Sequence record: NC_101840.1
Origin: a phage
Length of the DNA stretch: 49,798 nt
Reading direction: 5' to 3' (one strand)
The notes under the pieces were generated by a model, which searched no databases, was not told the origin of the DNA, and saw only the letters and a list, made by a program, of their open reading frames with translations. Positions 1,803-48,966 of the stretch are shown here, piece by piece. The position numbers and the translations under genes were made by a program. The first letter of the stretch is position 1. Every line of letters begins with the position of its first letter.

Positions 1803-3370
1803 TGATCATATGGGAAGATTTGACGGCGGCGCAAAAGCGAGCCATTAAAGAAATCAGTGAGCATTCATTCGAAAAGATGATCAGAATCTGGTTTCAGTTA
1901 TTGCAGGGGCAAAAATTCCAGAGCAACTGGCATTTTAGCTTATTGTGCAGTGAGGTAGAGAAGATCATCAATGGAGAGTCGCAGAATGTGATTTTCAACA
2001 TTACGCCAGGTAGCGGTAAGACTGAGATTTTCTCAATCCACATGTCACCCTACGCGTCATTGAAAAGTCGGAAGGTGAGAAACCTTAACCTTTCGTTTAG
2101 TGATGGACTTGTCCAGCAAAACAGCAACAGGATAAAGGAGATTATCGGTTCTCCTGAGTGGCAAGAGCTATGGCCAGGAAAACTGGCAAAGGCGAGCGCA
2201 AAAGATCTCATAGTTACGGATGGCGGCAAGGTTAAATTGCAAGTTAACTCACGTTCTATTGGCGGACAGGTAACAGGTTTGCGTGGCGGCTATATGGACG
2301 ATGGTTTTACTGGTATGCTGGTTCTGGACGATCCAGACAAGCCGGATGATATGCTTTCTAAGGTCAAGCGTGAGGCGATCCACATGCGGTTAAAAAACAC
2401 AGTGCGATCGCGTCGAATGAAAGACACTACGCCGATTGTTATGGTGCAACAGCGACTACACGTTAATGATTCCACCTGGTTTATGCTTAATGGCGGGATG
2501 GGTGGTATTGAGTTTAAAGTTGTGAGTATTCCGGCGCTGGTTACGAAAGAATACCGCGAAACGCTTCCTGATTGGTTGAAGCCTGAATTTGATCGTGATG
2601 TGTTGTCAAGTAAGCCAGTGATGATAGATGGCGTTGCTCATTATTCATTTTGGCCTGCGAAGGAAAGCGCGGAGGAATTGCTTGCATTGCGCAATGCAGA
2701 TCCTTATACGTTCGCCAGTCAGTACCAACAGCAACCCATCGCGCTTGGCGGCAACGTGTTTAAAACAGAGTGGTTCCAGTATTACGGCAGCGGCGAAAAA
2801 TGCGCACTTCCTAAACCGGATCGCTTTGAATACACATTTATTACTGGTGATACCGCGCAGAAGGCCGGAGAGCTTAACGACTATTCAGTTTTTTGTTATT
2901 GGGGGATGTATAAGAATCGCGTTTACTTCATTGATGGCATTCGCGGAAAGTGGGAAGCGCCGGATCTTGAATTAAATTTTATTGCCTTCGTTAATCAGTG
3001 CTGGAAGCGCAATAAGGAGTGTGGCAGCTTGCGACGTATCCACATTGAGGATAAGGCCAGCGGCACGGGTTTGATTCAGGGGGCCAAAAAGAAGATCCCG
3101 ATTGATATAAATCCCGTTCAGCGAAGCAACGACAAGGTAACGCGAGCAATGGACGCCGCGCCAGTGATGAGGGCCGGACGTGTGGCACTGCCAGAAAATC
3201 ACCCCATGCTGCCTGAGATACTGGCAGAGGTTGCAGCATTCACTTTTGATGATTCTCATCCCCATGATGATATTGTCGATAATATAGTTGATGCTGTTAA
3301 CGTAGAAATGAATTTGGCAGATGATCCGGTGGCAAGGATGAAAAAGCTGGCAGGTCTACGCAATAAATAG
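1802..3370 (+). CDS. terminase large subunit (522 aa)
   Basis: size, position before portal, Walker-A-like PGSGKTE and C-terminal nuclease-like acidic motifs. Confidence 0.85.
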   Translation: MIIWEDLTAAQKRAIKEISEHSFEKMIRIWFQLLQGQKFQSNWHFSLLCSEVEKIINGESQNVIFNITPGSGKTEIFSIHMSPYASLKSRKVRNLNLSFSDGLVQQNSNRIKEIIGSPEWQELWPGKLAKASAKDLIVTDGGKVKLQVNSRSIGGQVTGLRGGYMDDGFTGMLVLDDPDKPDDMLSKVKREAIHMRLKNTVRSRRMKDTTPIVMVQQRLHVNDSTWFMLNGGMGGIEFKVVSIPALVTKEYRETLPDWLKPEFDRDVLSSKPVMIDGVAHYSFWPAKESAEELLALRNADPYTFASQYQQQPIALGGNVFKTEWFQYYGSGEKCALPKPDRFEYTFITGDTAQKAGELNDYSVFCYWGMYKNRVYFIDGIRGKWEAPDLELNFIAFVNQCWKRNKECGSLRRIHIEDKASGTGLIQGAKKKIPIDINPVQRSNDKVTRAMDAAPVMRAGRVALPENHPMLPEILAEVAAFTFDDSHPHDDIVDNIVDAVNVEMNLADDPVARMKKLAGLRNK

Positions 3371-3386
3371 CACTAATTGCTAAAAA
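3365..3386 (+). promoter_or_regulatory. conserved junction box (variant AAATAGCACTAATTGCTAAAAA), sense to downstream gene
   Basis: one of 18 copies of the box; its TAG is the terminase stop codon; followed by TATAAT (3391-3396) and a hairpin. Confidence 0.5.
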
Positions 3387-7990: not shown

Positions 7991-8010
7991 GTTTAACAAA
8001 AAGTGCTATC
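7991..8010 (-). promoter_or_regulatory. conserved junction box, inverted relative to downstream capsid gene
   Basis: GTTTAACAAAAAGTGCTATC on + strand; followed by hairpin GGCCGTT...AACGGCC. Confidence 0.45.
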
Positions 8011-8053
8011 ATCTAGGCCGTTACATTTAACGGCCTTTTATGGAGGAAACAAA

Positions 8054-11740: not shown

Positions 11741-11760
11741 TTTTAACAAAAAGTGCTATA
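11741..11760 (-). promoter_or_regulatory. conserved junction box, inverted relative to downstream gene
   Basis: TTTTAACAAAAAGTGCTATA directly abutting the RBS of the chaperone gene. Confidence 0.45.
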
Positions 11761-11773
11761 AGGAGATCTTAAG

Positions 11774-17037: not shown

Positions 17038-17614
17038 GCTATCTGGTTCCCTGGGGCGTAGATTTGGCGTCTTTCACAAAATGGCGGTTGACTCATACCC
17101 CGAAGCAATACGCGCGTTATCTTCCCAGGTTGAAGGGTTCAAGGACTACATGCAAAGCGAAGTAGGATCGCGAATGAAGTATGCTGTATTCGTTGATGGA
17201 AAAAACGTTGGTCAGCATGATGAAAAATCATGGAAGTGCGCGCGAGAGGTTCGAATAGTTCCTGTTCCAACTGGTTCTAAGTCCGGCGGCCTGTTCAATG
17301 TTGTTTTTGGTGCTGTAATTATGGCTACTGCTTTCATTACTGGCGGTGCAAGCCTGGCGGCTATGGGCGCTTTTGCATCTTCCGCATTTATGATGGGTGG
17401 TGCTATCGCGCTTGGCGGTGTCATGCAAATGATCTCGCCGCAGCAGGGAGGAATGAAACTGCAAAGCCAGTCAGCAGAAAACAAGCCTTCTTACGCTTTC
17501 GGCGGCGCAGTAAATACCACGGCGGCAGGCTATCCGGTTCCTTTGCCATATGGATATAGGACAGTAGGCGGCGCGATCTGGTCGGCTGGCAGCTACGCAG
17601 AGGACAAAGCATAA
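17018..17614 (+). CDS. tail assembly protein (lambda I-like)
   Basis: position after K-like gene; Gly/Ala-rich hydrophobic C-terminal half. Confidence 0.55.
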   Translation: MTLKVIKLSGSLGRRFGVFHKMAVDSYPEAIRALSSQVEGFKDYMQSEVGSRMKYAVFVDGKNVGQHDEKSWKCAREVRIVPVPTGSKSGGLFNVVFGAVIMATAFITGGASLAAMGAFASSAFMMGGAIALGGVMQMISPQQGGMKLQSQSAENKPSYAFGGAVNTTAAGYPVPLPYGYRTVGGAIWSAGSYAEDKA

Positions 17615-17634
17615 ATAGCACAATATGTTAAAGC
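17613..17634 (+). promoter_or_regulatory. conserved junction box variant (AAATAGCACAATATGTTAAAGC)
   Basis: degenerate copy; follows TAA stop of I-like gene; followed by hairpin GCGAAAACGGATTTTCGC. Confidence 0.4.
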
Positions 17635-18152: not shown

Positions 18153-18158
18153 ACTTAA

Positions 18159-18181: not shown

Positions 18182-18229
18182 TGCCTTTATAATGTGCAAA
18201 CCAAGAAACAGCACAAAAGGTTAAAAGTA

Positions 18230-23054: not shown

Positions 23055-23076
23055 GTTTAGCAAAAAGTGCTATTTG
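23055..23076 (-). promoter_or_regulatory. conserved junction box, sense to leftward lipoprotein operon
   Basis: GTTTAGCAAAAAGTGCTATTTG on + strand; TATAGT hexamer about 21 nt downstream on minus strand. Confidence 0.5.
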
Positions 23077-26581: not shown

Positions 26582-26813
26582 TATACCTTCCGCTACCCAA
26601 CTCGGATGATAGATCAGTTTGTTTTAGATACGGTTTCAACTTATTGTCAACATCAGCAGTTGATGCTTTTCCTGCAACATCCTGTTTTAGTGTCGAAACG
26701 TCATTTTTCAGCTTCGTTATATCACCAGGAATAGTAGCAACATCCTGTTTTAGTGTTGAAACGTCATTTTTCAGCTTCGTTATATCACTAGGTATAACAG
26801 TGACTGTAGCCAT
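26553..26813 (-). CDS. tail-fibre segment with perfect 20-aa tandem repeat (86 aa); likely 5' part of the same fibre gene
   Basis: AAGGAG RBS; IPxDITKLKNDVSTLKQDVA repeated twice; ends at stop just after a T5/C6 homopolymer. Confidence 0.5.
   Translation of the reverse strand: MATVTVIPSDITKLKNDVSTLKQDVATIPGDITKLKNDVSTLKQDVAGKASTADVDNKLKPYLKQTDLSSELGSGRYSGSFYPPNW
26676..26795. repeat. two tandem 60-bp direct repeats inside the fibre ORF
   Basis: near-identical 60-mers on the + strand with 2 mismatches. Confidence 0.7.
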
Positions 26814-29074: not shown

Positions 29075-29096
29075 AAATAGCACTTTTTGCTAATGA
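29075..29096 (+). promoter_or_regulatory. conserved junction box, inverted relative to the leftward fibre gene
   Basis: AAATAGCACTTTTTGCTAATGA about 16 nt upstream of the fibre gene start on the opposite strand. Confidence 0.45.
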
Positions 29097-30150: not shown

Positions 30151-30627
30151 TTAGCTATTCGTGCTGTTATCACCTTTGTAGAATCGTCCGCCTGGTTCGT
30201 AGTCTGAATTTTTGACTACGCGCAACATATCGTATTTGTCGCAACGGGTAGTAAGAGGCTTACCGTTAGAATCAAACCGCAGATCTGGACGACAAAATGA
30301 TGCGCGGTATCCTTTGCATCCATTATATTTGTAGTCGTTATGCACCTTTTGTGCTCCAGCGGCTGAAATCATACCACGCTTTCGCCACTGGTTAACGACT
30401 TGCTGAGATACGCGCAGACGTCGAGCCATAGCAGGAACGCCGCCGTAATACTCGATCAGAATGTCAAGGCGAGATTTCAGGCTTGCTTTTACCTCATCTC
30501 GCAGGATAAGAAATCCGGTTCGGTGTTTTCGTGGTTTTTTGTCTTTACCTCGTCGCGTTCCGTTGTTACCGTTAATAGTGCGCTTGTCGATCTCACCCGT
30601 AGATACTGCAATTCGTGCATCTTTCAT
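30151..30627 (-). CDS. HTH DNA-binding protein (Cro/YdaS-like helix-turn-helix)
   Basis: LRVSQQVVNQWRKRG helix-turn-helix signature, basic N-terminal region; GAGGTGA RBS. Confidence 0.5.
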   Translation of the reverse strand: MKDARIAVSTGEIDKRTINGNNGTRRGKDKKPRKHRTGFLILRDEVKASLKSRLDILIEYYGGVPAMARRLRVSQQVVNQWRKRGMISAAGAQKVHNDYKYNGCKGYRASFCRPDLRFDSNGKPLTTRCDKYDMLRVVKNSDYEPGGRFYKGDNSTNS

Positions 30628-30636
30628 CTAGTCACC

Positions 30637-30658
30637 TCATAGCATTTTTTGTTAAAAC
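30637..30658 (+). promoter_or_regulatory. conserved junction box, sense to helicase gene; overlaps RBS of divergent HTH gene
   Basis: CATAGCATTTTTTGTTAAAAC. Confidence 0.5.
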
Positions 30659-30714
30659 AGTTTATTGTAATTAGTCTATTATATACTCCAAATGGCATTT
30701 TTTAAAGGTTTAAG

Positions 30715-32712
30715 ATGATTCCAAATATCGAAAAACAAATATCAGCATTAGGCGAGGCAGTAATAAAAAGCATCCAAGAGCGATTCACGGTTGGCAATAT
30801 AGTGCCTTATCCTTATCAGTGCGTTGCGTATGCAGAGATCGCAAAGCGCATGAAAAACTATGAGCATCCTTTCTTTGTTAAGGCTTCTGTATCGGCTGGC
30901 AAAACATTGATGTTTGCGATGGTTGCGGCGCAATGCCGCAAAATGGGATTGAAAATGATGGTCCTTGCTCGCCAGGCTGAAATTGTTGATCAGGATTCGG
31001 AAGAGATCAGCAATCTTGGCGTGCCAAACTCAATCTATTGCGCCGGACTGAAAACAAAAAGCGCATACTTTCCGATCGTAGTCGGTTCTGAGGGCACTGT
31101 AGTAAACGGATTGTTTAAGTCGTTAGGTGATTATGTTCCGCACGTTATCGGTATTGATGAATGTCACCAGGTGGATTGGGAGGATCTCGCGGACGCGATA
31201 GAAAATAATGAATCTTACCAGCAGATGACCACTAAGAAGGATTTGCCTGTACTGATTGGAGAAGAACAGCAATTTGATTCCAATGGCGATCCAATGTTCG
31301 GAACAGGGCGCACACAGTACACCGTAATAATCATGGAAATGATGCGTAGGTGTCGCGAGGCATACGGGCACGAATTGCGAATATTCGGCATGACTGGATC
31401 TGAGTTTCGCGGCGTGGTTCCAATACTGGTTGAAGATAAGAACAAAAAGGGATTCTGGCGTGAGCAGGTGACTAACATAGACACAAACTACTTAATCAAA
31501 TTCGGTTCGGTAGTGCCAACAAACTTCGGCGACGTAGGCGACCTGGGTTATGACCTTTCAGAGTTCGAAGCCAGTAGCGAGGATGGCGTTTCAGACTTTG
31601 ACGCTAAAACATTGCGCAAGATGGAAGAAAAGATCCATCAAGACGCAACAATGACACAGAAAATCATGGCTAAAGTCCATGAGATATGCAAAGACAGGAA
31701 CGGAGTTTTAGTTACATGCGCAGGGGAAAGGCACTGCAAGGAGGCCGCCGCCGCACTGCCGCCAGGCGTTGAATACAGGATCATAACTGGCAAGACTGGA
31801 GATAATCAGCGTAAAGAGTGGCTGAGGGAGGCATACGAGGGAAAAGTAAAATACATCTTCCAGGTACAGGCGCTTACCACTGGCGTTAACGTTCCGTTTT
31901 GGGATACTTCTGTAATACTGAGAAAGATAGGATCTCTAACATTGCTTATCCAGCTTTTGGGGCGCGGCATGCGACTGCTTAAGCAATGGCACATTGAGCA
32001 GGGATTCAAGAAAAAAGATCATCTTGTGTTGGATTTTGCAGGTACTATGGATGAGTTAGGTGATTTGTATTTCGATCCAATCCTTGAGCAAGCGCAATTC
32101 CAAAAGAGATTTACAAACGGGAAAGAGCCTAAGACTTGTCCGATATGTGGAACGCTAAACAGCTTTTACGCTCGCCGATGTATGCACGTAGACGATAACG
32201 GGAAGCGATGTGAGCATTTTTGGACTTACAGAATTTGCGAGGACCAGGTAGATCCGAGAACGAAAAAGATAATCAAGCGCGGTTGTGGAACAAAAAACGA
32301 CGTAGTGGCGAGAGTATGCCGTTGTTGCGATATTTCTCTTGTCGATCCTAACGAGAAGTTAAGCGGTAAGCACTACACCAAAAACGATTGGTGCAACGTT
32401 AAATCTTTCCGCGTTGATATGACGAAAAACCAGAAAGGAATTATTTTTTGCTATGAGCTTGAGGCCAACGGCGACACGTTCAAGGCATACGAAAGATTTT
32501 TCCCTGAGTCAGAAAGCAACATTTGCCGGACGATATGGAGAAAAATAGCATTGCAGCACATACCGGATCGCAAGATTGCTGGTATGGTGGCGAGCTATAG
32601 AAATGCTCGTAAAATAATGTCATACGCTCATCACATCATGCCGCCTGTACGCGTAACGCATCGCAAAAACGGCAAAGGTGAGGATAACATTGCAAAACGG
32701 GAGTTTGTTTAA
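30715..32712 (+). CDS. SF2 DNA helicase with C-terminal Cys-rich zinc-finger region
   Basis: Walker A SAGKT, DECH box (GIDECHQ), later helicase motifs, CPICG/CxxC cluster. Confidence 0.8.
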   Translation: MIPNIEKQISALGEAVIKSIQERFTVGNIVPYPYQCVAYAEIAKRMKNYEHPFFVKASVSAGKTLMFAMVAAQCRKMGLKMMVLARQAEIVDQDSEEISNLGVPNSIYCAGLKTKSAYFPIVVGSEGTVVNGLFKSLGDYVPHVIGIDECHQVDWEDLADAIENNESYQQMTTKKDLPVLIGEEQQFDSNGDPMFGTGRTQYTVIIMEMMRRCREAYGHELRIFGMTGSEFRGVVPILVEDKNKKGFWREQVTNIDTNYLIKFGSVVPTNFGDVGDLGYDLSEFEASSEDGVSDFDAKTLRKMEEKIHQDATMTQKIMAKVHEICKDRNGVLVTCAGERHCKEAAAALPPGVEYRIITGKTGDNQRKEWLREAYEGKVKYIFQVQALTTGVNVPFWDTSVILRKIGSLTLLIQLLGRGMRLLKQWHIEQGFKKKDHLVLDFAGTMDELGDLYFDPILEQAQFQKRFTNGKEPKTCPICGTLNSFYARRCMHVDDNGKRCEHFWTYRICEDQVDPRTKKIIKRGCGTKNDVVARVCRCCDISLVDPNEKLSGKHYTKNDWCNVKSFRVDMTKNQKGIIFCYELEANGDTFKAYERFFPESESNICRTIWRKIALQHIPDRKIAGMVASYRNARKIMSYAHHIMPPVRVTHRKNGKGEDNIAKREFV

Positions 32713-33131
32713 TGGCTATAACTGATAAAGGAGATTATCTTGAGTTTTACGAAAGAGATCCAACCGACACGAGAAAGGAAGTTAATCACCAGATAGATAG
32801 CTTTCAGTGGTTGACTTATGCTCATCCTTATTTGCTAGCGTGGCATACGGTAAACGAGAATGAGAAGTCGAAAGTAACGGCGATGATTGATCAGCAGTCC
32901 GGCTTGGTTAAGGGGGTAAGCGATTTCATCATCCTGATTGGTTCAAACGGAAAATACCCCTTTGCAGCGATTGAGATCAAACGAGTTAATAAATCAGGCA
33001 AGGGGAAAGCATCACCAGTCAGCGATGAACAAAAGGCTTTTTTGCGTCGCGTTCGCAGCTTAGGAGGATTCGCTGCGGTCGCCTACGGATTTAATCAGTT
33101 TAAGTTAGCTATTGAATACATGCTTAAATAG
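32712..33131 (+). CDS. VRR-NUC domain nuclease
   Basis: GVSDF...AAIEIK PD-(D/E)XK pattern of VRR-NUC proteins; coupled to helicase. Confidence 0.6.
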   Translation: MAITDKGDYLEFYERDPTDTRKEVNHQIDSFQWLTYAHPYLLAWHTVNENEKSKVTAMIDQQSGLVKGVSDFIILIGSNGKYPFAAIEIKRVNKSGKGKASPVSDEQKAFLRRVRSLGGFAAVAYGFNQFKLAIEYMLK

Positions 33132-33147
33132 CACTTTTTGTTAAAAC
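33126..33147 (+). promoter_or_regulatory. conserved junction box (consensus copy), sense
   Basis: AAATAGCACTTTTTGTTAAAAC; TAG is the stop of the VRR-NUC gene; hairpin TGGCGCG...GCGCCA and CATAAT follow. Confidence 0.55.
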
Positions 33148-33210
33148 TGGCGCGATGGATTGCGCCATAATTCAATAACACGAGATAGCTTTTAATAGCG
33201 GAGAAATGAA

Positions 33211-33936
33211 ATGGCTAAAGATATTTTAGATAAAGACACCCATGACGCATTCGTTAGCTTTGAGCAGTTGGAGAGAGAAACATTTATAGGGAATGCCCTT
33301 GCAACTGGAGGCCATTACCAGGCAGTAAAGCCAAATCAATATTATAAGGTAAGCGGCAACCGATACGCTGGAAGCACTACGCCGGACGTTGTGCGCGATA
33401 TGTGGAGCACGCCTCAAGAGATCGTGGAGTGGATGGAATCAGAATTTGGTGAATACGATCTCGACGCGGCAGCAAGCCATGAAAACGCAGTTTGCGAGAA
33501 GTTCTATAGCAAGGAAACAAACTGCTTAAAGCGTTGGTGGGGTAGCAACAAGCACGTATGGCTTAACCCGCCGTACAGCAACCCAACTCCATTTATCAAG
33601 AAAGCAATTGAGCAAATGGAGCACAACAACCAAATTGATGTTTTGTTGCCATCCGACAACTCTACAGCATGGTTTTATGAGGCGCAGAAAAACGCGGCTG
33701 AAATCATCTGGATCACTGGCGAGGTTTACGAAGAGGGGGGAGTGGAATATTCCCGCACCGGAAGAATCGCCTTTGTGTCTGGATTGACTGGCGAGCCTGT
33801 ACAGGGCAACAATAAGGGAAGCGTGATTTTTGTCATGCGCAAACTTAAAGAAGGCGAGGAGCAGAAAACGCGATACGTTAAGATCAGCGATATTTGCCCC
33901 TCTGTAACCGAACGCCGCGCGCGCAAACGGAGCTAA
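33211..33936 (+). CDS. dam: DNA N6-adenine methyltransferase (phage Dam type)
   Basis: catalytic NPPY motif (WLNPPYSN) and SAM-binding-like region. Confidence 0.8.
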   Translation: MAKDILDKDTHDAFVSFEQLERETFIGNALATGGHYQAVKPNQYYKVSGNRYAGSTTPDVVRDMWSTPQEIVEWMESEFGEYDLDAAASHENAVCEKFYSKETNCLKRWWGSNKHVWLNPPYSNPTPFIKKAIEQMEHNNQIDVLLPSDNSTAWFYEAQKNAAEIIWITGEVYEEGGVEYSRTGRIAFVSGLTGEPVQGNNKGSVIFVMRKLKEGEEQKTRYVKISDICPSVTERRARKRS

Positions 33937-33940: not shown

Positions 33941-34198
33941 ATGAAAAAAGAGAGAAGCGTTTATTTAAATGAAACTGGCGAGTGGTTGTTATTTCGCGCT
34001 ATGGTGTGCGATGCACTTGATAAAAACCCTAACGTGAAAAAGATGATTGATTGCGATCCGTGGGAATTTTCAAGCGCATTAGATATGAGCTTTGATGAGA
34101 CAAGGAAACTCCCTCTTGAAAAATGGCACGAACAAATCAGAAATGATATGCAAGAGTTTGTAGATTCGTGGAATTTTCAGAACGGAATGATCCACTAA
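33941..34198 (+). CDS. hypothetical protein (85 aa)
   Basis: track ORF. Confidence 0.45.
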   Translation: MKKERSVYLNETGEWLLFRAMVCDALDKNPNVKKMIDCDPWEFSSALDMSFDETRKLPLEKWHEQIRNDMQEFVDSWNFQNGMIH

Positions 34199-34218
34199 TA
34201 GCACTTTTTGTTAAAACG
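34197..34218 (+). promoter_or_regulatory. conserved junction box, sense
   Basis: TAATAGCACTTTTTGTTAAAAC; hairpin GCCCGGC...GTCGGGC, ATAATT and leader TTCATCGAAACGAAC follow. Confidence 0.55.
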
Positions 34219-34267
34219 CCCGGCATTTTGTCGGGCATAATTATTTCATCGAAACGAACGTGAGGAA

Positions 34268-37439: not shown

Positions 37440-37460
37440 GTTTTAACAAAAAATGCTATT
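37440..37460 (-). promoter_or_regulatory. conserved junction box, sense to leftward gene
   Basis: on minus strand: AATAGCATTTTTTGTTAAAAC, hairpin CCCGACC...GGTCGGG, TATATT, leader TTCATCGAAACGAAC. Confidence 0.55.
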
Positions 37461-37576
37461 CCATACGCTTTACTGTAACCAATAACACACCATCATCATT
37501 GCATAAAACGTGTTCAGTGGTGCTAAAAGCTCGCATATCTGAATAAAGTAGCGTAAGTAAAGCATGAATAAAATCA

Positions 37577-37972
37577 TCATGTGATATTGAATTTACGGCG
37601 CAGTGCTTCAAGATCTTGTCTATTAGCTTTTGCCTGGAACAATTCATCATCGCCCATCTCCCCTATTCTAGCCATATCCCTGATCCAGTCGTTGCGCATA
37701 CCATCCAGGCTATACAATTCGAATCCGAAAGGCCGCTTTGACGATCCTTTGGACCAGTATTTTCCGCAGACTCCATCTATATAACCAGCCGTCATCATTC
37801 TTGCGCAAAATTCCTTAGATGCAAGGCTGGCGAACATTCGCGGCGTAAGTCCGGCGGCCCGTGCGAGCCGCTCACATTCTCTATGCTGATAGATAAATTT
37901 GGCTATGTGCTGCCTGTTAAACCAATCGTATGACTCACACCATTTATACAGATCAAGCAAAAACATAATCAT
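37577..37972 (-). CDS. hypothetical protein (131 aa)
   Basis: track ORF; start overlaps stop of upstream ATPase gene. Confidence 0.45.
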   Translation of the reverse strand: MIMFLLDLYKWCESYDWFNRQHIAKFIYQHRECERLARAAGLTPRMFASLASKEFCARMMTAGYIDGVCGKYWSKGSSKRPFGFELYSLDGMRNDWIRDMARIGEMGDDELFQAKANRQDLEALRRKFNIT

Positions 37973-39601: not shown

Positions 39602-39623
39602 GTTTTGTCAAAAAGTGCTATTT
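39602..39623 (-). promoter_or_regulatory. conserved junction box (TTGACA variant), sense to leftward ATPase gene
   Basis: on minus strand: AAATAGCACTTTTTGACAAAAC; TAG is stop of upstream gene; hairpin GGGCCGTTAAAATTTACGGCCC follows. Confidence 0.55.
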
Positions 39624-39839
39624 GATCCGCTCTATTGCAACCAGAAGTCGATCAGGCTGGCGGTCGCTGTAGCATTCTCCTGTAATCCCATCCTTAAACG
39701 TAAAGTAAAGCGCCTTATGATATGAAAAACCAATCAGCCAACCTACCGCCGTTTTTTTGATGGGCCTGACTATATCGCCAGGCTTGAAAGTCTTTGTGGT
39801 AGAATGCGTTACTTTGTAACGGTTTTCACTGTTTATCAC
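39618..39839 (-). CDS. hypothetical protein (73 aa)
   Basis: track ORF, coupled to upstream gene. Confidence 0.4.
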   Translation of the reverse strand: MINSENRYKVTHSTTKTFKPGDIVRPIKKTAVGWLIGFSYHKALYFTFKDGITGECYSDRQPDRLLVAIERIK

Positions 39840-40275: not shown

Positions 40276-40297
40276 CTTTTAACAAAAAGTGCTATTT
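40276..40297 (-). promoter_or_regulatory. conserved junction box, sense to leftward genes
   Basis: on minus strand: AAAATAGCACTTTTTGTTAAAAG; TAG is stop of methyltransferase-like gene; hairpin GCCAGGTG...CCTGGC and CATAAT follow. Confidence 0.55.
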
Positions 40298-41002
40298 TGA
40301 GTTTGACTCAAAGACTGCGCGAGCAAAGCCGCGCGGAGTGAGGGAGCGGATCATCTTTGTGCGCGATGACTTGCCGCCAGTTTTGGCCCAGCCTGGATTA
40401 TCTTTGTCTTCCTCTTTCGGCAGGATTAAAGCGCGTGGAGGAATAACAAAGCCGTTGCCAGTCCAGAGGCACGTTTTCTTAAAATAGCGATCACGCGCAG
40501 GAATAATATCAGGGAAGTCGGGATGTTTATCATCTTCCGGCAGATAGCCAGCGTAATCGCACGGATGGAACGTATAATCAGGCTTACGCCATAACGTTGA
40601 CAACTTGCCAACCGGATTTTCGATCATGTAAGGAACACCGAAATAATCAGCTATATCAGCCGCGATTCTGCAAGTGTCGGCGGCCTCATCCTGGAACGAT
40701 GGATTCTCAAGGCGTTTTTTGGCCCAATGGCGAGATCCGCTATTTGCAAGGTCGGTGCACGGCGGAAATGCCATAATAAAATCAGGATTGCCCCACTCAT
40801 TATTGATTGCCTTAACATAAAAAGCATCGTCAATCCAGACGTTAACGTATTCGATATTCTCATGCTGTATGCGCACTGACTGGTAATCACCGTGATCGCC
40901 ACCGTCAGCATTAAAGCAAATGCACTTATATCCATTATCAGCCCAATCTTTAACGGCTTTACCAGATCCATCAAATAGGGAGAATATTAAACCTTTATAC
41001 AT
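40292..41002 (-). CDS. compact DNA cytosine-5 methyltransferase-like protein (about 236 aa)
   Basis: motif I-like LFDGSG, PC-motif FPPCTDLANSG, ENV-like IENPVG, LTPRG near C-terminus; start at second ATG with GAGGT RBS (track 40292..41071). Confidence 0.5.
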   Translation of the reverse strand: MYKGLIFSLFDGSGKAVKDWADNGYKCICFNADGGDHGDYQSVRIQHENIEYVNVWIDDAFYVKAINNEWGNPDFIMAFPPCTDLANSGSRHWAKKRLENPSFQDEAADTCRIAADIADYFGVPYMIENPVGKLSTLWRKPDYTFHPCDYAGYLPEDDKHPDFPDIIPARDRYFKKTCLWTGNGFVIPPRALILPKEEDKDNPGWAKTGGKSSRTKMIRSLTPRGFARAVFESNSK

Positions 41003-41012
41003 CGTCATTACC

Positions 41013-41237
41013 TCAAAACGGAAAACAGCGCGGACAACCAGGATCGAAATCGCATCCACAATCATTAACAATCATAGTGGGATCTGCAAATATTGCGCTT
41101 GATTCAAGATCCATATCCATATCACCTAAAGCCTCATCAAGAGTCTTAATTTTATATGCCACTTCAAGCGCCGCCTCTTTATTTAGTCCGGCATCTTCTG
41201 CCATTTGAAGGCGCTCAAAAAATCCGTCTTGACTCAT
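41013..41237 (-). CDS. hypothetical acidic protein with C-terminal Cys cluster (74 aa)
   Basis: track ORF; CGCDFDPGCPRC motif. Confidence 0.45.
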   Translation of the reverse strand: MSQDGFFERLQMAEDAGLNKEAALEVAYKIKTLDEALGDMDMDLESSAIFADPTMIVNDCGCDFDPGCPRCFPF

Positions 41238-41940: not shown

Positions 41941-42137
41941 TAGATGATCTCCATGTATGTTTCAAAGCCATTTAACTTGAACAGGCCGTTTTCACATTTG
42001 CGAACGTTCCAAGTTAGCCCTGAGTGGTACGCCTCCATATCATCAAGGTCAATGGTGATTTCAGCACCTTTCTTAAACAAACCTTTTTCGTGAGACTTGT
42101 CGCGCTTAACAACTTTAACATCAACCTGATTTTCCAT
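41940..42137 (-). CDS. hypothetical protein (65 aa)
   Basis: track ORF; GAGGA RBS. Confidence 0.45.
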   Translation of the reverse strand: MENQVDVKVVKRDKSHEKGLFKKGAEITIDLDDMEAYHSGLTWNVRKCENGLFKLNGFETYMEII

Positions 42138-42192
42138 CTTTAAATCCTCGTTTGTTGTCGATGCGCTTACTATACCAATCAGCAGCGCATCT

Positions 42193-42214
42193 TTTTTAAC
42201 AAAAAGTGCTATTT
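42193..42214 (-). promoter_or_regulatory. conserved junction box, sense to leftward genes
   Basis: on minus strand: AAATAGCACTTTTTGTTAAAAAA preceded by TAA stop; hairpin GATGCGCT...AGCGCATC with TATAGT in loop. Confidence 0.55.
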
Positions 42215-42476
42215 AGTCCAGAAATTCGATTTCACGATCTCCAGTTAACGGATTTACAAGCCAGAATCCGAGCGGTTCGCCGTGAACACCGCCATAGAAT
42301 CCAAGTGCCGTCAGATCTTCACCTTTAACGAATACCAGATTTCCGCTACGGCTTACGTGAGACACGTTAACGATAACCGGAAATGTGCGATCCTTAAATG
42401 CAGGCCGCAGGGCGTAACACCCGTTATTGAGCAAACGTGCTTTGCGCTTAACTGGAATAGGTGCATTAATTTTCAT
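42213..42476 (-). CDS. hypothetical protein (87 aa)
   Basis: track ORF. Confidence 0.45.
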   Translation of the reverse strand: MKINAPIPVKRKARLLNNGCYALRPAFKDRTFPVIVNVSHVSRSGNLVFVKGEDLTALGFYGGVHGEPLGFWLVNPLTGDREIEFLD

Positions 42477-43438: not shown

Positions 43439-43497
43439 TTACTATCTCCTGAGCGGTTCGTTTCGATGTGTGTAATGTACCCGATCAGGTGGCATGA

Positions 43498-43519
43498 GTT
43501 TTAACAAAAAGTGCTATTT
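43498..43519 (-). promoter_or_regulatory. conserved junction box heading the leftward early operon
   Basis: on minus strand: AAATAGCACTTTTTGTTAAAAC. Confidence 0.55.
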
Positions 43520-44072: not shown

Positions 44073-44100
44073 TTGACACGCACCAAATAGCTTTTATAAT
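44073..44100 (+). promoter_or_regulatory. consensus sigma70 promoter (TTGACA-N16-TATAAT) for rightward early operon
   Basis: perfect -35 and -10 hexamers about 30 nt upstream of ATG 44132. Confidence 0.6.
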
Positions 44101-44131: not shown

Positions 44132-44596
44132 ATGGAACAGAAGACCACTAAGGACTATTGCGATTGGCTTCGCGAGCTTGGTCGCCGCCTGGCTAGTGGC
44201 GATATTGAAGAGTATAAAATGTCACTAATTGACCTGGCCGGAATGTTAAGCGGTGACGACTGCTACAAGATCACGCGCAGTTCATCCTACAGCCGGACCA
44301 TTATCAACCGCGTTCCAGAAGTAAGGGCCGCAGGTCGGGTAAGCATCAAGGTAGAGGAAACGGAAGATGATAAATTTTACGTTTTCCGCATGGTCCGCGA
44401 ATCGAAAAGGAAAATCATCACACCCGAAGAATTGCCAGCCATCAAGGCGAGGGCGATCAAAAAGTTTGCCGATCGCTTACTGGCAGCAATCCCGAATATC
44501 GTTGACCTGGAAGGGGATAAACTGGCTGGGGCTTGCGAGGGCGTAAGCCGCTACCAGGATATGATCCGCGAAATCATCAAAGAGGAAGAGCAATGA
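44132..44596 (+). CDS. hypothetical early protein (154 aa)
   Basis: internal ATG of track ORF 44099 with GGAGGAAAGGAA RBS. Confidence 0.5.
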   Translation: MEQKTTKDYCDWLRELGRRLASGDIEEYKMSLIDLAGMLSGDDCYKITRSSSYSRTIINRVPEVRAAGRVSIKVEETEDDKFYVFRMVRESKRKIITPEELPAIKARAIKKFADRLLAAIPNIVDLEGDKLAGACEGVSRYQDMIREIIKEEEQ

Positions 44597-44865
44597 AAAA
44601 GGCATTAATCAGCGTTTTGGCGGCAATGGCATTCCTGACCGGATGTAAAGAAGATGGCGCGCATGTTGGCAATGTGCAGATGGCTAACCCTGGCGATGAC
44701 TACAGCGTAAGGGAGCTATTCACCGCTGACGGTTGCACCGTTTACCGATTCTATGACGATCGCACTGTTTACTTCACCAACTGTAAGGGAACGACTAGCT
44801 GGGAAGTGTCGAAAAGCAATGGCAAAGGCACGAAGACAGAACATATGACCGTCGAGACAAAATAG
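44593..44865 (+). CDS. lipoprotein (90 aa), second candidate superinfection-exclusion protein
   Basis: signal peptide with lipobox LTGC; ATGA overlap with upstream gene (track 44533 uses upstream start). Confidence 0.55.
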   Translation: MKKALISVLAAMAFLTGCKEDGAHVGNVQMANPGDDYSVRELFTADGCTVYRFYDDRTVYFTNCKGTTSWEVSKSNGKGTKTEHMTVETK

Positions 44866-44881
44866 CACTTTTTGTTAAAAC
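44860..44881 (+). promoter_or_regulatory. conserved junction box (consensus copy), sense
   Basis: AAATAGCACTTTTTGTTAAAAC; TAG is lipoprotein stop; hairpin GGGGCC-AGGTATAAT-GGCCC follows. Confidence 0.55.
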
Positions 44882-44934
44882 TCAAATGTGGGGCCAGGTA
44901 TAATGGCCCTACTTTCAACGAAGGAGATAAAACG

Positions 44935-45617: not shown

Positions 45618-46157
45618 ATGAAAAAATACACTTTCGAACTATGGGGCAAGAAGTACGAATTAATCACCAGCAAGCCGATTGTTATCGTTGACCTGGACGG
45701 CACACTATCGGACGGATCGCATCGTTTGCATTTGCTGCCAACTGAAAACTTGCACCTTACGGAATCGTGGAGCGAATTTAACAGGGCCGCAGCAGGAGAT
45801 TCACCGATTAAAAGCACGATCGCGATTGTTAACGGTTTGTGGGTGTCTGGATTTGCCATCGTCATCTTGACCGGACGCAGCGACGAGGTGCGCTATGAAA
45901 CCTGCAAATGGTTGAATGAGAGCGGCGTGAAGTTTGACGAAATCATCATGCGCCGCCAGGAGGACAACCGAAAGGATACGGTTATTAAAGAAGAAGCCTT
46001 GCGCGCTATTGGCCTGGACAATATTGTTTGCGCCTTTGACGATTCGCCGAACGTTGTTAAGCACTTCCGCAGCCTGGGAATCACAACCTATCAGGTCACG
46101 GAATACGACAAGCCACACGCTCACCTGCAATCTCACGGCGTGGAGTGTTTAAAATGA
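45618..46157 (+). CDS. HAD-superfamily phosphatase (polynucleotide 3'-phosphatase-like)
   Basis: motif I DLDGTL (DxDGT) near N-terminus, downstream conserved Thr/Lys/Asp-type motifs. Confidence 0.6.
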   Translation: MKKYTFELWGKKYELITSKPIVIVDLDGTLSDGSHRLHLLPTENLHLTESWSEFNRAAAGDSPIKSTIAIVNGLWVSGFAIVILTGRSDEVRYETCKWLNESGVKFDEIIMRRQEDNRKDTVIKEEALRAIGLDNIVCAFDDSPNVVKHFRSLGITTYQVTEYDKPHAHLQSHGVECLK

Positions 46158-46315
46158 CTTGGTTGCTTTTAATCTTTGTCACAAGTTACAACTCCGCAGC
46201 TATTGAGTCGCAGGAGTTCCACGGCGAATCAAGATGCCAGGAAGCGCGAAAGCAAGTTATTCTCCACATGTCAGATAGTGGGAAGGATGTAACAGCGTTA
46301 TGCGTTCGTAAATAG
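46154..46315 (+). CDS. hypothetical small protein (53 aa) with hydrophobic N-terminus
   Basis: ATGA overlap with upstream stop; its TAG stop lies inside the next box; below ORF-track size cutoff. Confidence 0.3.
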   Translation: MTWLLLIFVTSYNSAAIESQEFHGESRCQEARKQVILHMSDSGKDVTALCVRK

Positions 46316-46331
46316 CACTTTTTGCAAAAAA
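46310..46331 (+). promoter_or_regulatory. conserved junction box (variant), sense
   Basis: AAATAGCACTTTTTGCAAAAAAC; hairpin GGGCTT-GCTGTATAGT-AAGCCC follows. Confidence 0.5.
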
Positions 46332-46387
46332 CAGATCATCGGGCTTGCTGTATAGTAAGCCCATAAACAACAAACGAGGATTAAATC

Positions 46388-47044: not shown

Positions 47045-47635
47045 ATGAAACGAGACATTATCATCCTTAATGGGCCGCCAGGTTGCGGGAAGGACACTAT
47101 TGCAGCTTACCTAACGGGCCATCGTTACCCAGCGGTTAAGGCGTCATTCAAACAGCCGATGTTCGATATTGCGTTTTCCATGCTTGGCCCGACTCGATAT
47201 GATGAGTTTATTGACCTGTACAACGACCGAGAGCAAAAGGAAAAGCCTCAAGTTATCTTAGGCGGCAAGTCACCTCGACAATTCATGATCTGGATTAGCG
47301 AGGATGTAATGAAGCCAGTCTTTGGGGATCACTATTTCGGGCGTCGAATGGTTGAAGAGATTCACGAGATGTACCGAGATTTAGCGGTTGTGATCAGCGA
47401 TGGAGGATTCCCCGAAGAAATCAAGCCGCTCGTTAAGGCGGGGCATGAGGTGCATATTTGCCGATTGCATCGCGACGGCTTCACGTTTGCTGGCGATTCG
47501 AGAGACTACATTGACCTGAGCGGTTATCACTATCGAATCCATCACTATGACTTCCACTTGCAGGACGGCAAGCCGGAACTGGCTGTAAACGAGATCGTCA
47601 ATGCTGTCAAATGGAAGCACACAAAGATTAAATAG
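47045..47635 (+). CDS. P-loop kinase (polynucleotide-kinase-like or nucleotide kinase)
   Basis: Walker A GPPGCGKDT at residues 10-18; size 196 aa. Confidence 0.6.
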   Translation: MKRDIIILNGPPGCGKDTIAAYLTGHRYPAVKASFKQPMFDIAFSMLGPTRYDEFIDLYNDREQKEKPQVILGGKSPRQFMIWISEDVMKPVFGDHYFGRRMVEEIHEMYRDLAVVISDGGFPEEIKPLVKAGHEVHICRLHRDGFTFAGDSRDYIDLSGYHYRIHHYDFHLQDGKPELAVNEIVNAVKWKHTKIK

Positions 47636-47650
47636 CACTAATTGCTAAAC
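47630..47650 (+). promoter_or_regulatory. conserved junction box (variant AAATAGCACTAATTGCTAAAC), sense
   Basis: TAG is kinase stop; TATAAT 22 nt after TTGCTA. Confidence 0.5.
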
Positions 47651-47705
47651 GCGGGGCGCAATGCCTCGCTATAATGCAAACACCAATCAACGAGAGGAAA
47701 CAATC

Positions 47706-48656: not shown

Positions 48657-48947
48657 ATGGCAAACAAAACTTACCGCAAACTACTGGTTAACGCTTTTGA
48701 AAACATCGCGCAGTGTAACAAGTGGAACGACTCTAAACACTCGCCAATCACAATGAAGCGCGCCGGATTCAAAAATGCTCGTTCATGGGCGCGAGCTTTC
48801 GCAGCTTGCTATATGCCGGATGGCGGACTAGGGGTGATGAACGATTTTTTGATCAACATGATAGAGGAAGCGGCGCGAGAGGATCGACCGCTGACACAGC
48901 GAGATTTTGACGGCTTCGCGCGCGATGAGCTTTACTATCTGAGCTAA
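48657..48947 (+). CDS. hypothetical protein (96 aa)
   Basis: track ORF with RBS. Confidence 0.45.
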   Translation: MANKTYRKLLVNAFENIAQCNKWNDSKHSPITMKRAGFKNARSWARAFAACYMPDGGLGVMNDFLINMIEEAAREDRPLTQRDFDGFARDELYYLS

Positions 48948-48966
48948 TAGCACTTTTTGTTAAAAC
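48945..48966 (+). promoter_or_regulatory. conserved junction box (consensus copy), sense
   Basis: TAATAGCACTTTTTGTTAAAAC; hairpin AAGGGCA-TTTGGTAAAG-TGCCCTT follows. Confidence 0.55.

What the first reader, a model, noticed from the sequence alone, without database searches (positions are those of the whole stretch)
44860..44881. The box doubles as the stop codon of the upstream gene at about 11 junctions
The TAG inside AAATAGCAC is the in-frame stop of the upstream gene at 3365 (large terminase), 33126 (VRR-NUC), 44860 (lipoprotein), 46310, 47630 (kinase), 39602 and 40276. At 17613, 34197, 48945 and 42193 a TAA stop sits immediately 5' of ATAGCAC. Genes therefore end exactly at the box in whichever reading frame they arrive. 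This is the signature expected of a portable boundary cassette where genes are swapped by recombination between boxes, similar in concept to the promoter-stem-loop cassettes described in T4-like phages.
Basis: partly seen in the sequence, partly recalled or inferred. Interest (0 to 1): 0.65.

Follow-up and report, generated by a model that had tools for sequence, protein, structure and literature searches.

The report
Promoter box that ends upstream genes
In this T1-like coliphage a repeated 21-base box, most likely the upstream half of the phage's standard promoter, also supplies the stop codon of the gene before it, and these promoter units are places where related phages have gained, lost or swapped small genes.

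Summary
The window is a complete Warwickvirus (T1-like) genome with 18 boxes. At 11 of 12 junctions with an upstream same-strand gene, that gene stops on the box's TAG or on a TAA touching it. Across 133 T1-like loci, 264 of 330 non-redundant boxes end an upstream ORF this way.

The box itself is already published: the 21-nt repeat aaATAGCACnnnTTGnTAAAA of TLS, T1 and Rtp, function stated as unknown.

New here:
- The box sits at a fixed distance from an extended -10 (TGnTATAAT) and a CA start. This makes a ~75-nt promoter/5'UTR cassette, usually with a hairpin in the spacer.
- The box offers stops in all three frames, but multi-frame stops show no sign of selection. The overlap looks like compaction against a built-in backstop.
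- Comparison with relatives shows crossovers inside cassettes. The finding's own box (44860-44886) is the scar of a 1.2-2.3 kb box-to-box deletion relative to all 10 relatives.
- About half of gene-sized indel sites lie in cassettes, which occupy about 20% of gene boundaries.
- The same cassette occurs in the T4-like phage KP15.

Promoter activity is inferred, not shown.

The parts
44860..44880 (+). The box of the finding (AAATAGCACTTTTTGTTAAAA). TAG at 44863-44865 is the stop of the lipoprotein gene 44593-44865.
44860..44886 (+). Recombination scar. This is the segment shared by the two flanking alignments. All 10 relatives have 1.19-2.29 kb (2-3 small genes) between two copies of it.
44888..44912 (+). 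Spacer hairpin (GUGGGGCCA/UGGCCCUAC) with the -10 hexamer in its loop.
   Evidence: hairpins are general in cassettes
44899..44904 (+). TATAAT -10 hexamer. Predicted start is near 44911. SD is GAAGGAG. The downstream gene starts at 44935.
3365..3385 (+). Box. TAG 3368-3370 stops the large terminase gene (1802-3370). It is followed by TATAAT 3391-3396 and the terminator hairpin 3398-3419. Portal gene starts at 3441.
17613..17633 (+). Box. TAA 17612-17614 stops the tail assembly gene (17018-17614). It is the first base of a window-specific 542-bp insertion carrying an HNH endonuclease gene (17670-18152).
33126..33146 (+). Box. TAG 33129-33131 stops VRR-NUC (32712-33131). -10 CATAAT at 33166-33171. 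The dam gene starts at 33211.
34196..34216 (+). Box. TAA 34196-34198 (followed in frame by the box TAG) stops ORF 33941-34198. -10 CATAAT at 34236-34241. Next gene starts at 34268.
46310..46330 (+). Box. TAG 46313-46315 stops ORF 46145-46315. It is the right breakpoint of a 166-bp replacement in EC125, tonnikala, tonijn and SECphi27. -10 TATAGT at 46351-46356. Next gene starts at 46388.
47630..47650 (+). Box (TAATT variant). TAG 47633-47635 stops the kinase gene 47045-47635. -10 TATAAT at 47670-47675. Next gene starts at 47706.
48945..48965 (+). Box. TAA 48945-48947 stops ORF 48657-48947. Extended -10 TGgTAAAGT ends at 48990. Next gene starts at 49023.
39603..39623 (-). Box. TAG 39620-39618 stops ORF 39618-39839. 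-10 TAAAAT at 39583-39578. Helicase gene starts at 39549.
40277..40297 (-). Box. TAG 40294-40292 stops the methylase-like ORF 40292-41071. Extended -10 TGgCATAAT ends at 40252. Next gene starts at 40222.
42194..42214 (-). Box. TAA 42215-42213 stops ORF 42213-42476. The whole cassette (42134-42219) is duplicated around 424-648-bp insertions in tonnikala, tonijn and SECphi27, with the crossover at GCATCGA.
43499..43519 (-). Box heading the leftward early operon, with no upstream gene. The cassette 43453-43519 is duplicated around a 320-bp insertion in tunus, with the crossover in CATCGAAACGAACCGC.
37441..37461 (-). Box variant (ATAGCAT). The annotated upstream gene ends 118 nt away. Only a doubtful 64-aa ORF (37456-37650) ends on its TAG.
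30637..30657 (+). Box variant (ATAGCAT) in the divergent region ahead of the helicase gene (start 30715). -10 TATTAT at 30677-30682.
23055..23075 (-). Box heading the leftward membrane/exclusion gene cluster (start 22999). -10 TATAGT at 23036-23031.
7991..8011 (-). Box pointing against the flanking capsid-region genes. It is conserved in T1 and TLS. The right breakpoint (7970) of a variable segment lies 20 nt from it.
11741..11761 (-). Box pointing against the flanking tail genes. It has an extended -10 (TGaTAGATT) and faces the bidirectional terminator 11678-11696.
29075..29095 (+). Degenerate box (GCTAATG) pointing against the tail-fibre and primase genes. There is no -10 at the usual place.

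Best explanation
The box is the upstream recognition element (about -50 to -32) of the standard promoter of T1-like phages.

Each copy heads a ~75-nt cassette with these parts:
- the box;
- a 19-nt variable spacer that usually folds into a hairpin;
- an extended -10 (TGnTATAAT) read by host sigma-70 RNA polymerase;
- a CA start site;
- a short conserved leader (CATCGAAACGAAC);
- a Shine-Dalgarno sequence and the ATG.

The genome is packed so tightly that the cassette is the whole intergenic space. The upstream ORF runs straight into it. The box happens to carry stops in all frames: TAG at positions 2-4, TAA at 15-17, and TAA just before it if a T precedes the AA flank. The ORF therefore ends there, usually on the TAG after a box-imposed Lys or Glu codon.

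The cassettes are also the largest dispersed repeats in the genome. Short-homology recombination between two cassettes deletes, inserts or replaces the genes between them. This probably uses the phage's own exonuclease VIII / Erf system, or replication slippage. Because the stop lies at the 5' edge of the shared sequence, each product keeps an intact upstream gene and a complete promoter for the downstream one. The box at 44860 is such a product.

Shown here: the anatomy, the statistics and the crossovers. Inferred: promoter activity, what contacts the box, and which enzymes recombine it.
For: Identity:
- The consensus and copy number match the published TLS/T1/Rtp repeat, which is oriented with transcription about 76 nt before start codons.

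Promoter geometry:
- In 74 non-redundant cassettes, G37 is found in 62, T39 in 50, A40 in 63, T44 in 57, C50 in 43 and A51 in 53. This is TGnTAnnnT plus a CA start 7 nt later, all at fixed distance from the box.
- Start codons lie 56-84 nt from the box.
- Canonical -35/-10 promoters are no commoner than in shuffles.
- KP15's annotators independently marked the same unit as a promoter.

Hairpin:
- Mean MFE is -10.1 kcal/mol, against -4.1 for shuffles and -5.1 for coding sequence. 68% of spacers fold at -8 or below.

Stops:
- 11 of 12 junctions in the window.
- 264 of 330 junctions family-wide, in frames 184: 42: 38, against an 11.7% chance rate.
- The last sense codon is AAA in 85 cases and GAA in 39.
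- T at -3 is at background when unused.

Recombination:
- The box families are the top dispersed repeats in the genome.
- Sequence-level crossovers are seen in the box and in the leader motif.
- Breakpoint enrichment is shown.
- 12 of 24 indel sites lie in cassettes, with a median homology of 22 nt.
- The phage encodes exonuclease VIII and an Erf-like annealing protein.
Against: - No transcript 5' ends are available for any T1-like phage, so promoter activity is inferred from sequence only.
- The TTG of the box lies 5 bp upstream of where a -35 should be. The box holds far more information (11 invariant positions) than a polymerase alpha-subunit site needs, so an unidentified protein may be required.
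- Only 6 of the 18 window copies have TG exactly at 36-37.
- At 3367 the -10 is displaced and a true terminator follows.
- Three boxes point against the flanking genes.
- Per nucleotide, cassette boundaries are not hotter for breakpoints than plain gene boundaries. Half of the indel sites use other microhomologies.
- The strong bias to the TAG frame (184:42:38) is not fully explained by passive compaction.
Confidence: 0.65

Rival explanations
1. Selected module boundary. The stops inside the box are maintained by selection because they make every gene plus cassette unit freely exchangeable. The box exists mainly as a recombination site.
For: - Stops are available in all three frames, and 80% of junctions use them.
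- Crossovers lie inside boxes, and the flanking genes stay intact.
- The cassette occurs in an unrelated T4-like phage in front of native T4-like genes.
Against: - T at -3 is not enriched when the gene already stops on TAG (37/149), so multi-frame stops are not maintained.
- Boxes also head operons that have no upstream gene (43517-, 30639+, 23073-).
- The fixed phasing with an extended -10 and a start site points to a primary role in expression.
- Indels occur equally at plain boundaries through 8-18-nt microhomologies.
Confidence: 0.15
2. The box is the binding site of a phage-encoded regulator. This could be an activator at a class-II-like position (centre -41), as with Mu Mor or T4 MotA. 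It could instead be a repressor of the 'stoperator' type that blocks read-through. The stop overlap would be incidental. This overlaps with, rather than excludes, the promoter explanation.
For: - The box has eleven invariant positions and is asymmetric. It is centred at -41, and there is no usable -35.
- The box is absent from bacterial genomes apart from a phage contig and isolated chance hits, so no host regulon shares it.
- All T1-like phages encode a conserved HTH protein next to a box-containing divergent region.
- The TLS authors raise the stoperator and enhancer options.
Against: - Boxes precede genes of every class, including the first genes of the early operons.
- The cassette is kept in 117 Slopekvirus records. 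The sampled homologues of the T1-like HTH regulator are all in 37-53 kb genomes.
- These phages are virulent and have no lysogeny module.
- No binding data exist.
Confidence: 0.3
3. The box plus hairpin is an RNA-level element at the 3' end of the upstream message: a terminator, 3'-end stabiliser or RNase processing site. The stop codon is placed 16-18 nt before the hairpin so that a terminating ribosome does not prevent it folding.
For: - Hairpins are strongly enriched just after the box.
- The T1 record annotates hairpins just downstream of several gene ends as rho-independent terminators, in intergenic positions like those of the cassettes.
- At 3367 a genuine hairpin plus T-run follows.
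- The stop-to-hairpin distance is constant.
Against: - Most hairpins are followed by the leader CATCGAAAC, not a U-tract. At 44888-44912 the tail is ACUUUCAACG.
- Boxes occur where nothing is transcribed from upstream on that strand (divergent regions).
- This idea does not explain the conserved TGnTATAAT or the CA at fixed distance.
- No Rfam family matches.
Confidence: 0.1
4. The box is a sigma-54 type promoter (TGGCAC-N5-TTGC), as the resemblance TAGCAC-N4-TTGC might suggest.
For: There is superficial similarity to the -24/-12 consensus. The TLS authors mention enhancer-binding sequences.
Against: - The box has AG in place of the essential GG.
- The GC lies 2 nt too close to it.
- Position 14 is T in 46 of 74 copies.
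- A conserved sigma-70 extended -10 follows 20 nt further on.
- No enhancer-binding ATPase is annotated in the phage.
Confidence: 0.02

Closest known systems
The 21-nt intergenic direct repeat of T1-like phages (aaATAGCACnnnTTGnTAAAA), described for TLS and noted in T1, Rtp and Rogue1 (PMC11447400)
   Same: It is the same element: same consensus, about 18 copies per genome, oriented with transcription, and about 76 nt before start codons.
   Different: That paper lists its function as an open question (stoperator, enhancer site or UP element). It does not mention the stop-codon overlap, the fixed extended -10 and start site, the spacer hairpin or any role in recombination.
PeSL / PmSL cassettes of T4-like phages (Arbiol et al. 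2010; Comeau et al. 2014, PMC4122927)
   Same: Both are repeated composite intergenic units (stem-loop, promoter, Shine-Dalgarno, ATG). Both are concentrated among small variable genes and found at indel and replacement junctions. Recombination between copies is the proposed mechanism.
   Different: - PeSLs have a near-canonical -35/-10 with the stem-loop upstream of the promoter.
- Here there is no -35. A conserved box sits at -50 to -32, and the stem-loop lies inside the promoter spacer or around the -10.
- There is no sequence similarity between the two.
- The phage family is different.
- The PeSL paper never mentions stop codons.
Extended -10 promoters of E. coli (TRTGnTATAAT; own knowledge of the sigma-70 literature)
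   Same: The conserved T34, T36, G37 and T39 A40 ... T44, with a start 7 nt downstream, match this class. Such promoters do not need a -35 element.
   Different: Host extended -10 promoters have no conserved 19-nt upstream box. The exact box was found only in one phage contig and ten isolated sites among 185,579 bacterial genomes.
Activator-dependent phage promoters with a site overlapping -35 (T4 MotA box at -30; Mu Mor site about -51 to -33; own knowledge)
   Same: Both pair a good -10 with no -35 and a conserved phage-specific element just upstream. The box spans almost the same interval as the Mor site.
   Different: - No activator has been identified here.
- The box is not a dyad.
- The box-to--10 spacing (19 nt) differs from the MotA geometry (about 12 nt).
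- Boxes precede early as well as late genes.
Stoperators of mycobacteriophage L5 (cited in PMC11447400)
   Same: Both are many asymmetric sites in short intergenic spaces, oriented with transcription.
   Different: L5 is temperate and the sites bind its repressor. These phages are virulent, and the box is phased with a -10 element.

Membership tests
T1-like 21-nt intergenic direct repeat (TLS paper) | Consensus aaATAGCACnnnTTGnTAAAA | tested here: met
   18 copies in the window. ATAGCAC, G13 and A16-A17 are invariant in 74 non-redundant copies.
T1-like 21-nt intergenic direct repeat (TLS paper) | Between genes, in the direction of transcription, about 76 nt before a start codon | tested here: met
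   15 of 18 copies point with the downstream gene. Starts lie 56-84 nt from the box, typically 71-84. Three copies point against the flanking genes.
T1-like 21-nt intergenic direct repeat (TLS paper) | Restricted to T1-like (Drexlerviridae) genomes, many copies each | tested here: met
   All but one of the listed IMG/VR contigs are at most 53 kb (most 44-53 kb), with 12-19 boxes per relative. One exception is KP15.
Sigma-70 extended -10 promoter | TG at -15/-14 and a TAnnnT hexamer at -12 to -7 | tested here: met
   G37 in 62/74, T36 in 37/74, T39 in 50, A40 in 63, T44 in 57. In the window, 6 of 18 have TG at 36-37.
Sigma-70 extended -10 promoter | Transcription starts about 7 nt after the hexamer | not testable with these tools
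   Only the conserved C50 A51 supports it. No 5'-end data were found.
PeSL cassettes of T4-like phages | Repeated unit of stem-loop, promoter, SD and ATG filling the intergenic space | tested here: met
PeSL cassettes of T4-like phages | Stem-loop upstream of a near-canonical -35/N17/-10 promoter | tested here: not met
   No -35 at 17-bp spacing (positions 16-21 read AAAAcn). The hairpin lies between the box and the -10, or encloses the -10.
PeSL cassettes of T4-like phages | Found at indel and replacement junctions between close relatives | tested here: met
PeSL cassettes of T4-like phages | Excision of mini-circles between tandem copies | not testable with these tools
   Needs PCR on infected cells.
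UP element (alpha-CTD site) | A/T-rich tract at -40 to -60 matching the AAAWWTWTTTTnnAAAA consensus | tested here: not met
   The position fits, but the invariant core is ATAGCAC...G, not an A/T tract.
Sigma-54 promoter | GG at -24 and GC at -12 with fixed spacing | tested here: not met
   The box has AG in place of GG. The GC lies 2 nt too close and is often GT.
Intrinsic terminator | G+C-rich hairpin followed by a U-tract | tested here: not met
   At the finding the hairpin 44888-44912 is followed by ACUUUCAACG. The feature is met only at a few late-region copies such as 3398-3419.
Stoperator (L5-type) | Sites bound by the repressor of a temperate phage | tested here: inconclusive
   No lysogeny genes are annotated in eight relatives. 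A Cro/YdaS-like HTH protein exists, but its target is unknown.

The most novel reading that the evidence does not exclude
The box defines a distinct promoter class: an asymmetric 19-nt element centred at -41, an extended -10 and a spacer hairpin. It would be read by a so far unidentified factor or by an unusual polymerase contact. The ~75-nt cassette would be a genuinely mobile regulatory unit that combines a translational stop, a promoter and a leader. It would drive gene shuffling in Drexlerviridae and would have crossed into T4-like Slopekvirus genomes, where it sits in front of native T4-like genes.
Probability: 0.3. Interest if true: 0.7.

Novelty: new variant of a known kind. Interest (0 to 1): 0.55.

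Why it matters
- The function of the 21-nt repeat was posed as an open question for T1-like phages in 2024. The geometry found here (extended -10, start site, hairpin) turns it into a directly testable promoter model.
- The cassette crossovers give a concrete mechanism for how the many small early genes of these phages are gained, lost and exchanged. These genes include candidate anti-defence genes in phages widely used in defence-system screens.
- The result extends the PeSL idea from T4-like phages to an unrelated family with a differently built cassette.
- Practically, the cassette is a natural, self-contained "stop + promoter + leader" part. It also predicts where engineered insertions in T1-like phages will be tolerated, or lost again by box-to-box deletion.

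Tried and rejected
- Canonical sigma-70 reading of the box: TTGnTA would need a 22-bp spacer and TTAAAA a 19-bp one. The scanner finds canonical promoters only at chance level.
- Sigma-54 reading: rejected on spacing and on AG in place of GG.
- Host regulatory motif: the exact 19-mer gives 11 hits in 185,579 bacterial genomes. One is a T1-like phage contig and the rest are isolated sites without cassette features.
- Known RNA family: no Rfam match in the window.
- Selection for stops in several frames: T at -3 is at background.
- Cassette boundaries intrinsically hotter per nucleotide than plain boundaries: not supported once interval length is considered.
- Gene plus cassette moving together into KP15: rejected. 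The flanking KP15 genes have homologues only in T4-like phages.
- Literature on T1 transcript mapping: nothing found. The Rtp genome paper and the 2026 promoter-terminator coupling preprint could not be opened. Short-motif text searches returned only primer noise.
- A first ORF heuristic mis-assigned stops where TAA and TAG are in tandem or where a short last gene follows a long one. It was replaced (then 48, 51).
Full report
**1. What the window is**

The window aligns end to end, circularly permuted, with Escherichia phages ityhuna, tinuso, swan01 and tonn at 97-99% identity. These are Drexlerviridae, Tempevirinae, genus Warwickvirus. It is therefore a complete T1-like genome, and the annotated relatives give the gene map.

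**2.

AAATAGCAC occurs 12 times, against 0.72 expected from shuffles. ATAGCAC occurs 19 times, against 5.4 expected. A relaxed scan finds 18 real boxes of the form ATAGCACnnnTTGnTAAAA.

Each stop in the finding was checked against the ORF list and a per-box script:
- Seven genes end on the TAG inside the box. The stops are at 3368-3370, 33129-33131, 44863-44865, 46313-46315 and 47633-47635 on the plus strand, and at 39620-39618 and 40294-40292 on the minus strand.
- Four genes end on a TAA touching the box, at 17612-17614, 34196-34198, 48945-48947 and 42215-42213.
- That is 11 of the 12 boxes with a same-strand gene upstream.

The gene ending at 44865 is indeed a lipoprotein. It begins MKKALISVLAAMAFLTGC and ends ...VETK, with the Lys codon AAA running into the box.

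One correction is needed. In the window only two frames relative to the box are used, because the TAAs at 34196 and 48945 lie one codon ahead of the TAG in the same frame.

**3. The box is already in the literature, but its function is not**

The 2024 re-annotation of phage TLS describes a 21-nt direct repeat with consensus aaATAGCACnnnTTGnTAAAA. It has 18 intergenic copies, oriented with transcription, about 76 nt before start codons, and is also present in T1, Rtp and Rogue1. The authors suggest a stoperator, an enhancer site or an UP element, and list its function among open questions. That paper says nothing about stop codons or recombination at the repeats.

**4. Anatomy of the unit**

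I aligned 74 non-redundant copies from the window, ten Warwickviruses, TLS and T1 on the box. The first A of ATAGCAC is position 1. The alignment shows:
- ATAGCAC (1-7), G13, A16 and A17 are invariant.
- Positions 20-33 are variable.
- T34, T36 (37/74) and G37 (62/74) follow, then T39 (50), A40 (63), T41, A42, A43 and T44 (57).
- C50 (43) and A51 (53) come next, followed by an A-rich leader (often CATCGAAACGAAC) and a Shine-Dalgarno sequence.

Positions 36-44 read TGnTATAAT, the extended -10 consensus of sigma-70 promoters. CA lies 7 nt downstream, where transcription would start. On that numbering the box spans -50 to -32 and is centred at -41. Its TTG lies 5 bp upstream of where a -35 would be.

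Canonical -35/-10 pairs are no more frequent than in shuffled sequence anywhere in the genome. The single perfect one is at 44073-44100. This agrees with the TLS authors finding only three sigma-70-like promoters.

The variable spacer is not random. Positions 18-52 fold with a mean of -10.1 kcal/mol in 330 cassettes, against -4.1 for shuffles and -5.1 for nearby coding sequence. 68% reach -8 or lower. Two forms occur:
- a hairpin wholly before the -10;
- a hairpin with the -10 hexamer in its loop, as at the finding (44888-44912).

Start codons follow 56-84 nt after the box. The whole intergenic space is therefore one ~75-nt unit.

**5. The stop overlap is family-wide**

An exact-match scan of IMG/VR returned 120 loci. 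All but one listed contig is at most 53 kb, and most are 44-53 kb. Together with the GenBank relatives this gives 133 loci, 1.53 Mb, 730 boxes and 330 non-redundant junctions.

| Where the upstream ORF (at least 40 codons) stops | Junctions |
|---|---|
| Between -6 and +17 of the box | 264 (80%) |
| - in the TAG frame | 184 |
| - in the frame of a TAA just before the box | 42 |
| - in the third frame, on the TAA inside GTTAAAA | 38 |
| 7-30 nt upstream of the box | 17 |
| Read past the box | 9 |
| No such ORF | 40 |

For comparison, 11.7% of all stop triplets in the window close an ORF of that length.

The box thus offers a stop in every frame, and genes use all three. Two results argue that this is opportunistic rather than selected:
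- When the gene stops on the TAG, the base at -3 is T in 37 of 149 cases, which is background. The second-frame stop is therefore not maintained when it is not needed.
- The last sense codon is AAA or GAA in 124 cases, simply the AA flank of the box read as a codon.

Intergenic distances in relatives are bimodal, either 15 nt or less, or about 70-76 nt. This is what tight packing around a fixed-length cassette would give. The excess of the TAG frame (184:42:38) is only partly explained: the TAG frame costs one added residue, while the third frame costs five.

**6. Recombination at the cassettes, including at the finding itself**

I aligned the window to ten relatives and listed every gap between collinear alignments.

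At 44860-44886 the two flanking alignments overlap by 22-27 nt, which is the box. All ten relatives carry an extra 1.19-2.29 kb of two or three small genes, of varying content, between two box copies. At sequence level:
- The window has the lipoprotein gene and box of the relatives' first cassette.
- This is joined to the spacer, -10 and leader of their second cassette.
- The switch lies inside AAATAGCACTTTTTGTTAAAACTCAAA.

The box in the finding is therefore the scar of a box-to-box deletion.

Two further events have the same form:
- 424-648 bp in tonnikala, tonijn and SECphi27 are flanked by a duplicated 78-80-nt cassette at 42134-42219, with the switch at GCATCGA.
- 320 bp in tunus are flanked by a 67-nt cassette at 43453-43519, with the switch in CATCGAAACGAACCGC.

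Two more events touch a box on one side:
- A replacement in four phages ends exactly at the box at 46311.
- A window-specific HNH endonuclease gene (Pfam HNH_3) begins exactly at the box at 17615.

**7. How general is this, and how strong?**

I compared all 133 loci with each other at 90% identity or more.
- There are 329 clusters of homology breakpoints. 72 of them (22%) fall in cassette intervals that cover 4.2% of the sequence.
- Per non-redundant gene boundary there are 0.19 clusters at 270 cassette boundaries and 0.068 at 1137 plain ones. The odds ratio is 3.3 and p is 6e-9.
- Among gene-sized insertions with intact flanks, 35 partly redundant rows collapse by my reading to 12 cassette sites and 12 other sites. 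Cassettes make up 19-24% of boundaries, so p is 0.0006-0.005.
- The median repeated homology at cassette events is 22 nt and reaches 80 nt.

There are caveats:
- Cassette boundaries are several times longer than plain ones. Per nucleotide the two are about equally enriched over gene interiors.
- The events are not phylogenetically independent counts.
- The other half of the indels use microhomologies of 8-18 nt at plain boundaries. These lie at stop/start overlaps, in TAATGGCA, and in an 18-nt repeat GAATTTGAGGAAGTGAAA.

The fair reading is that these phages shuffle genes by short-homology recombination at gene boundaries in general. The promoter cassette is the largest and most repeated homology available: the box families are the top dispersed repeats in the genome. 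It therefore accounts for a disproportionate share of events.

**8. Where else the box occurs**

The exact 19-mer gives 11 hits in one genome each of 185,579 bacterial species. One hit is a 46.7-kb T1-like contig in a Nitratidesulfovibrio assembly. The rest are isolated sites without any cassette features. No host regulon shares the motif.

Unexpectedly, Klebsiella phage KP15 carries three consecutive cassettes. KP15 is a 174-kb T4-like Slopekvirus. The cassettes have the box, hairpin, extended -10, CATCGAAAC leader and SD, and lie at 9.7-10.45 kb. Upstream genes stop at the box there too. Two of the three are annotated there as "putative middle promoter; discovered using MEME". The segment is conserved in 117 records.

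The genes these cassettes flank have homologues only in T4-like phages. The cassette, not a gene, is what the two families share.

The conserved HTH protein of T1-like phages is window 30151-30627 on the minus strand. It has a weak Cro/YdaS-like match and belongs to PHROG 2856. Its sampled homologues are all in 37-53 kb genomes.

**9. Most likely mechanism**

- The box is the upstream element of the phage's standard promoter. Host sigma-70 polymerase reads the extended -10.
- What contacts the box is unknown. Candidates are a polymerase subunit or an unidentified factor.
- The upstream gene ends in the box because the genome is packed against a sequence that happens to contain stops.
- The repeated cassettes then act as recombination substrates. 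Because the stop sits at the 5' edge of the shared sequence, the products keep both neighbours intact.
- The phage's exonuclease VIII and Erf-like protein are plausible agents, but this is inference.

Rivals are scored in the Rival explanations section: a selected module boundary, a regulator site, an RNA 3'-end element, and a sigma-54 promoter. The main weakness throughout is that no transcript-end data exist for any T1-like phage.

**10. Comparison with known systems and novelty**

- The element is a member of the published T1-like repeat family.
- It works like the PeSL cassettes of T4-like phages. It is not one of them: it has no -35, a different order of parts and no sequence similarity.
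- The stop-codon overlap, the promoter geometry, the cassette crossovers and the Slopekvirus copies were not found in the papers I could read.
- I rate it a new variant of a known kind, of moderate interest.

Noticed in passing
window 7991-8011 (-), 11741-11761 (-), 29075-29095 (+): Three boxes point against the flanking genes. The first two are conserved in T1 and TLS and keep the TG of the extended -10. The one at 11759 would fire from about 11709 into the bidirectional terminator 11678-11696, giving a predicted 35-45-nt antisense RNA.
   Followed up: partly
L029 / L133 (Klebsiella phage KP15, GU295964.1, 9.7-10.45 kb, minus strand): A T4-like Slopekvirus carries three consecutive T1-type cassettes. 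Two of them are annotated as putative middle promoters. The genes they flank have homologues only in T4-like phages, so the cassette alone is shared across families.
   Followed up: partly
window 17613-18157: A window-specific 542-bp insertion carries an HNH endonuclease gene (17670-18152) with its own box. Relatives have either nothing, a remnant or a different HNH gene at this site.
   Followed up: partly
window 44073-44100 (+): This is the only perfect TTGACA-16-TATAAT in the genome. It lies in the divergent region ahead of the rightward early operon and is a candidate immediate-early promoter without a box.
   Followed up: no
window 26674-26796: A tandem duplication of about 60 nt with a 63-nt period and 95% identity. 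The alignments with relatives break here, so copy number or arrangement varies.
   Followed up: no
window 1260-1284, 6609-6633, 7173-7194, 8039-8063, 12433-12457, 33200-33221 and others: A conserved start region GGAG-N5-7-ATGGCTAAA (proteins beginning MAK) is shared by many genes. Similar stop/start sequences serve as microhomology at indels that do not involve a box.
   Followed up: partly
window 18208-18226 (+): The box-like sequence ACAGCACAAAAGGTTAAAA overlaps the Shine-Dalgarno and start of the tail fibre J gene. TLS has ATAGCACAAAAGGTTAAAA at the same place. It has no -10 at the usual distance.
   Followed up: no
L140 (NZ_VSMK01000220.1, Nitratidesulfovibrio liaohensis assembly, 46.7-kb contig): The 8 kb read from this contig carries five boxes with full cassettes, and the contig is 46.7 kb, the size of a T1-like genome. 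It is probably a contaminant or co-sequenced phage rather than part of that bacterium.
   Followed up: partly
window 37456-37650 (-): A small ORF of 64 aa ends on the TAG of the box at 37459 and overlaps the end of the YdbL-like gene. JLBYU01 annotates a small ORF at the matching place (8292-8486). If real, it is a twelfth junction.
   Followed up: no
330 box junctions in L001-L132 and the window: Stops inside the box are strongly biased to the TAG frame (184 against 42 and 38). The cost of the longer tail in the third frame may explain part of this, but not clearly all.
   Followed up: partly
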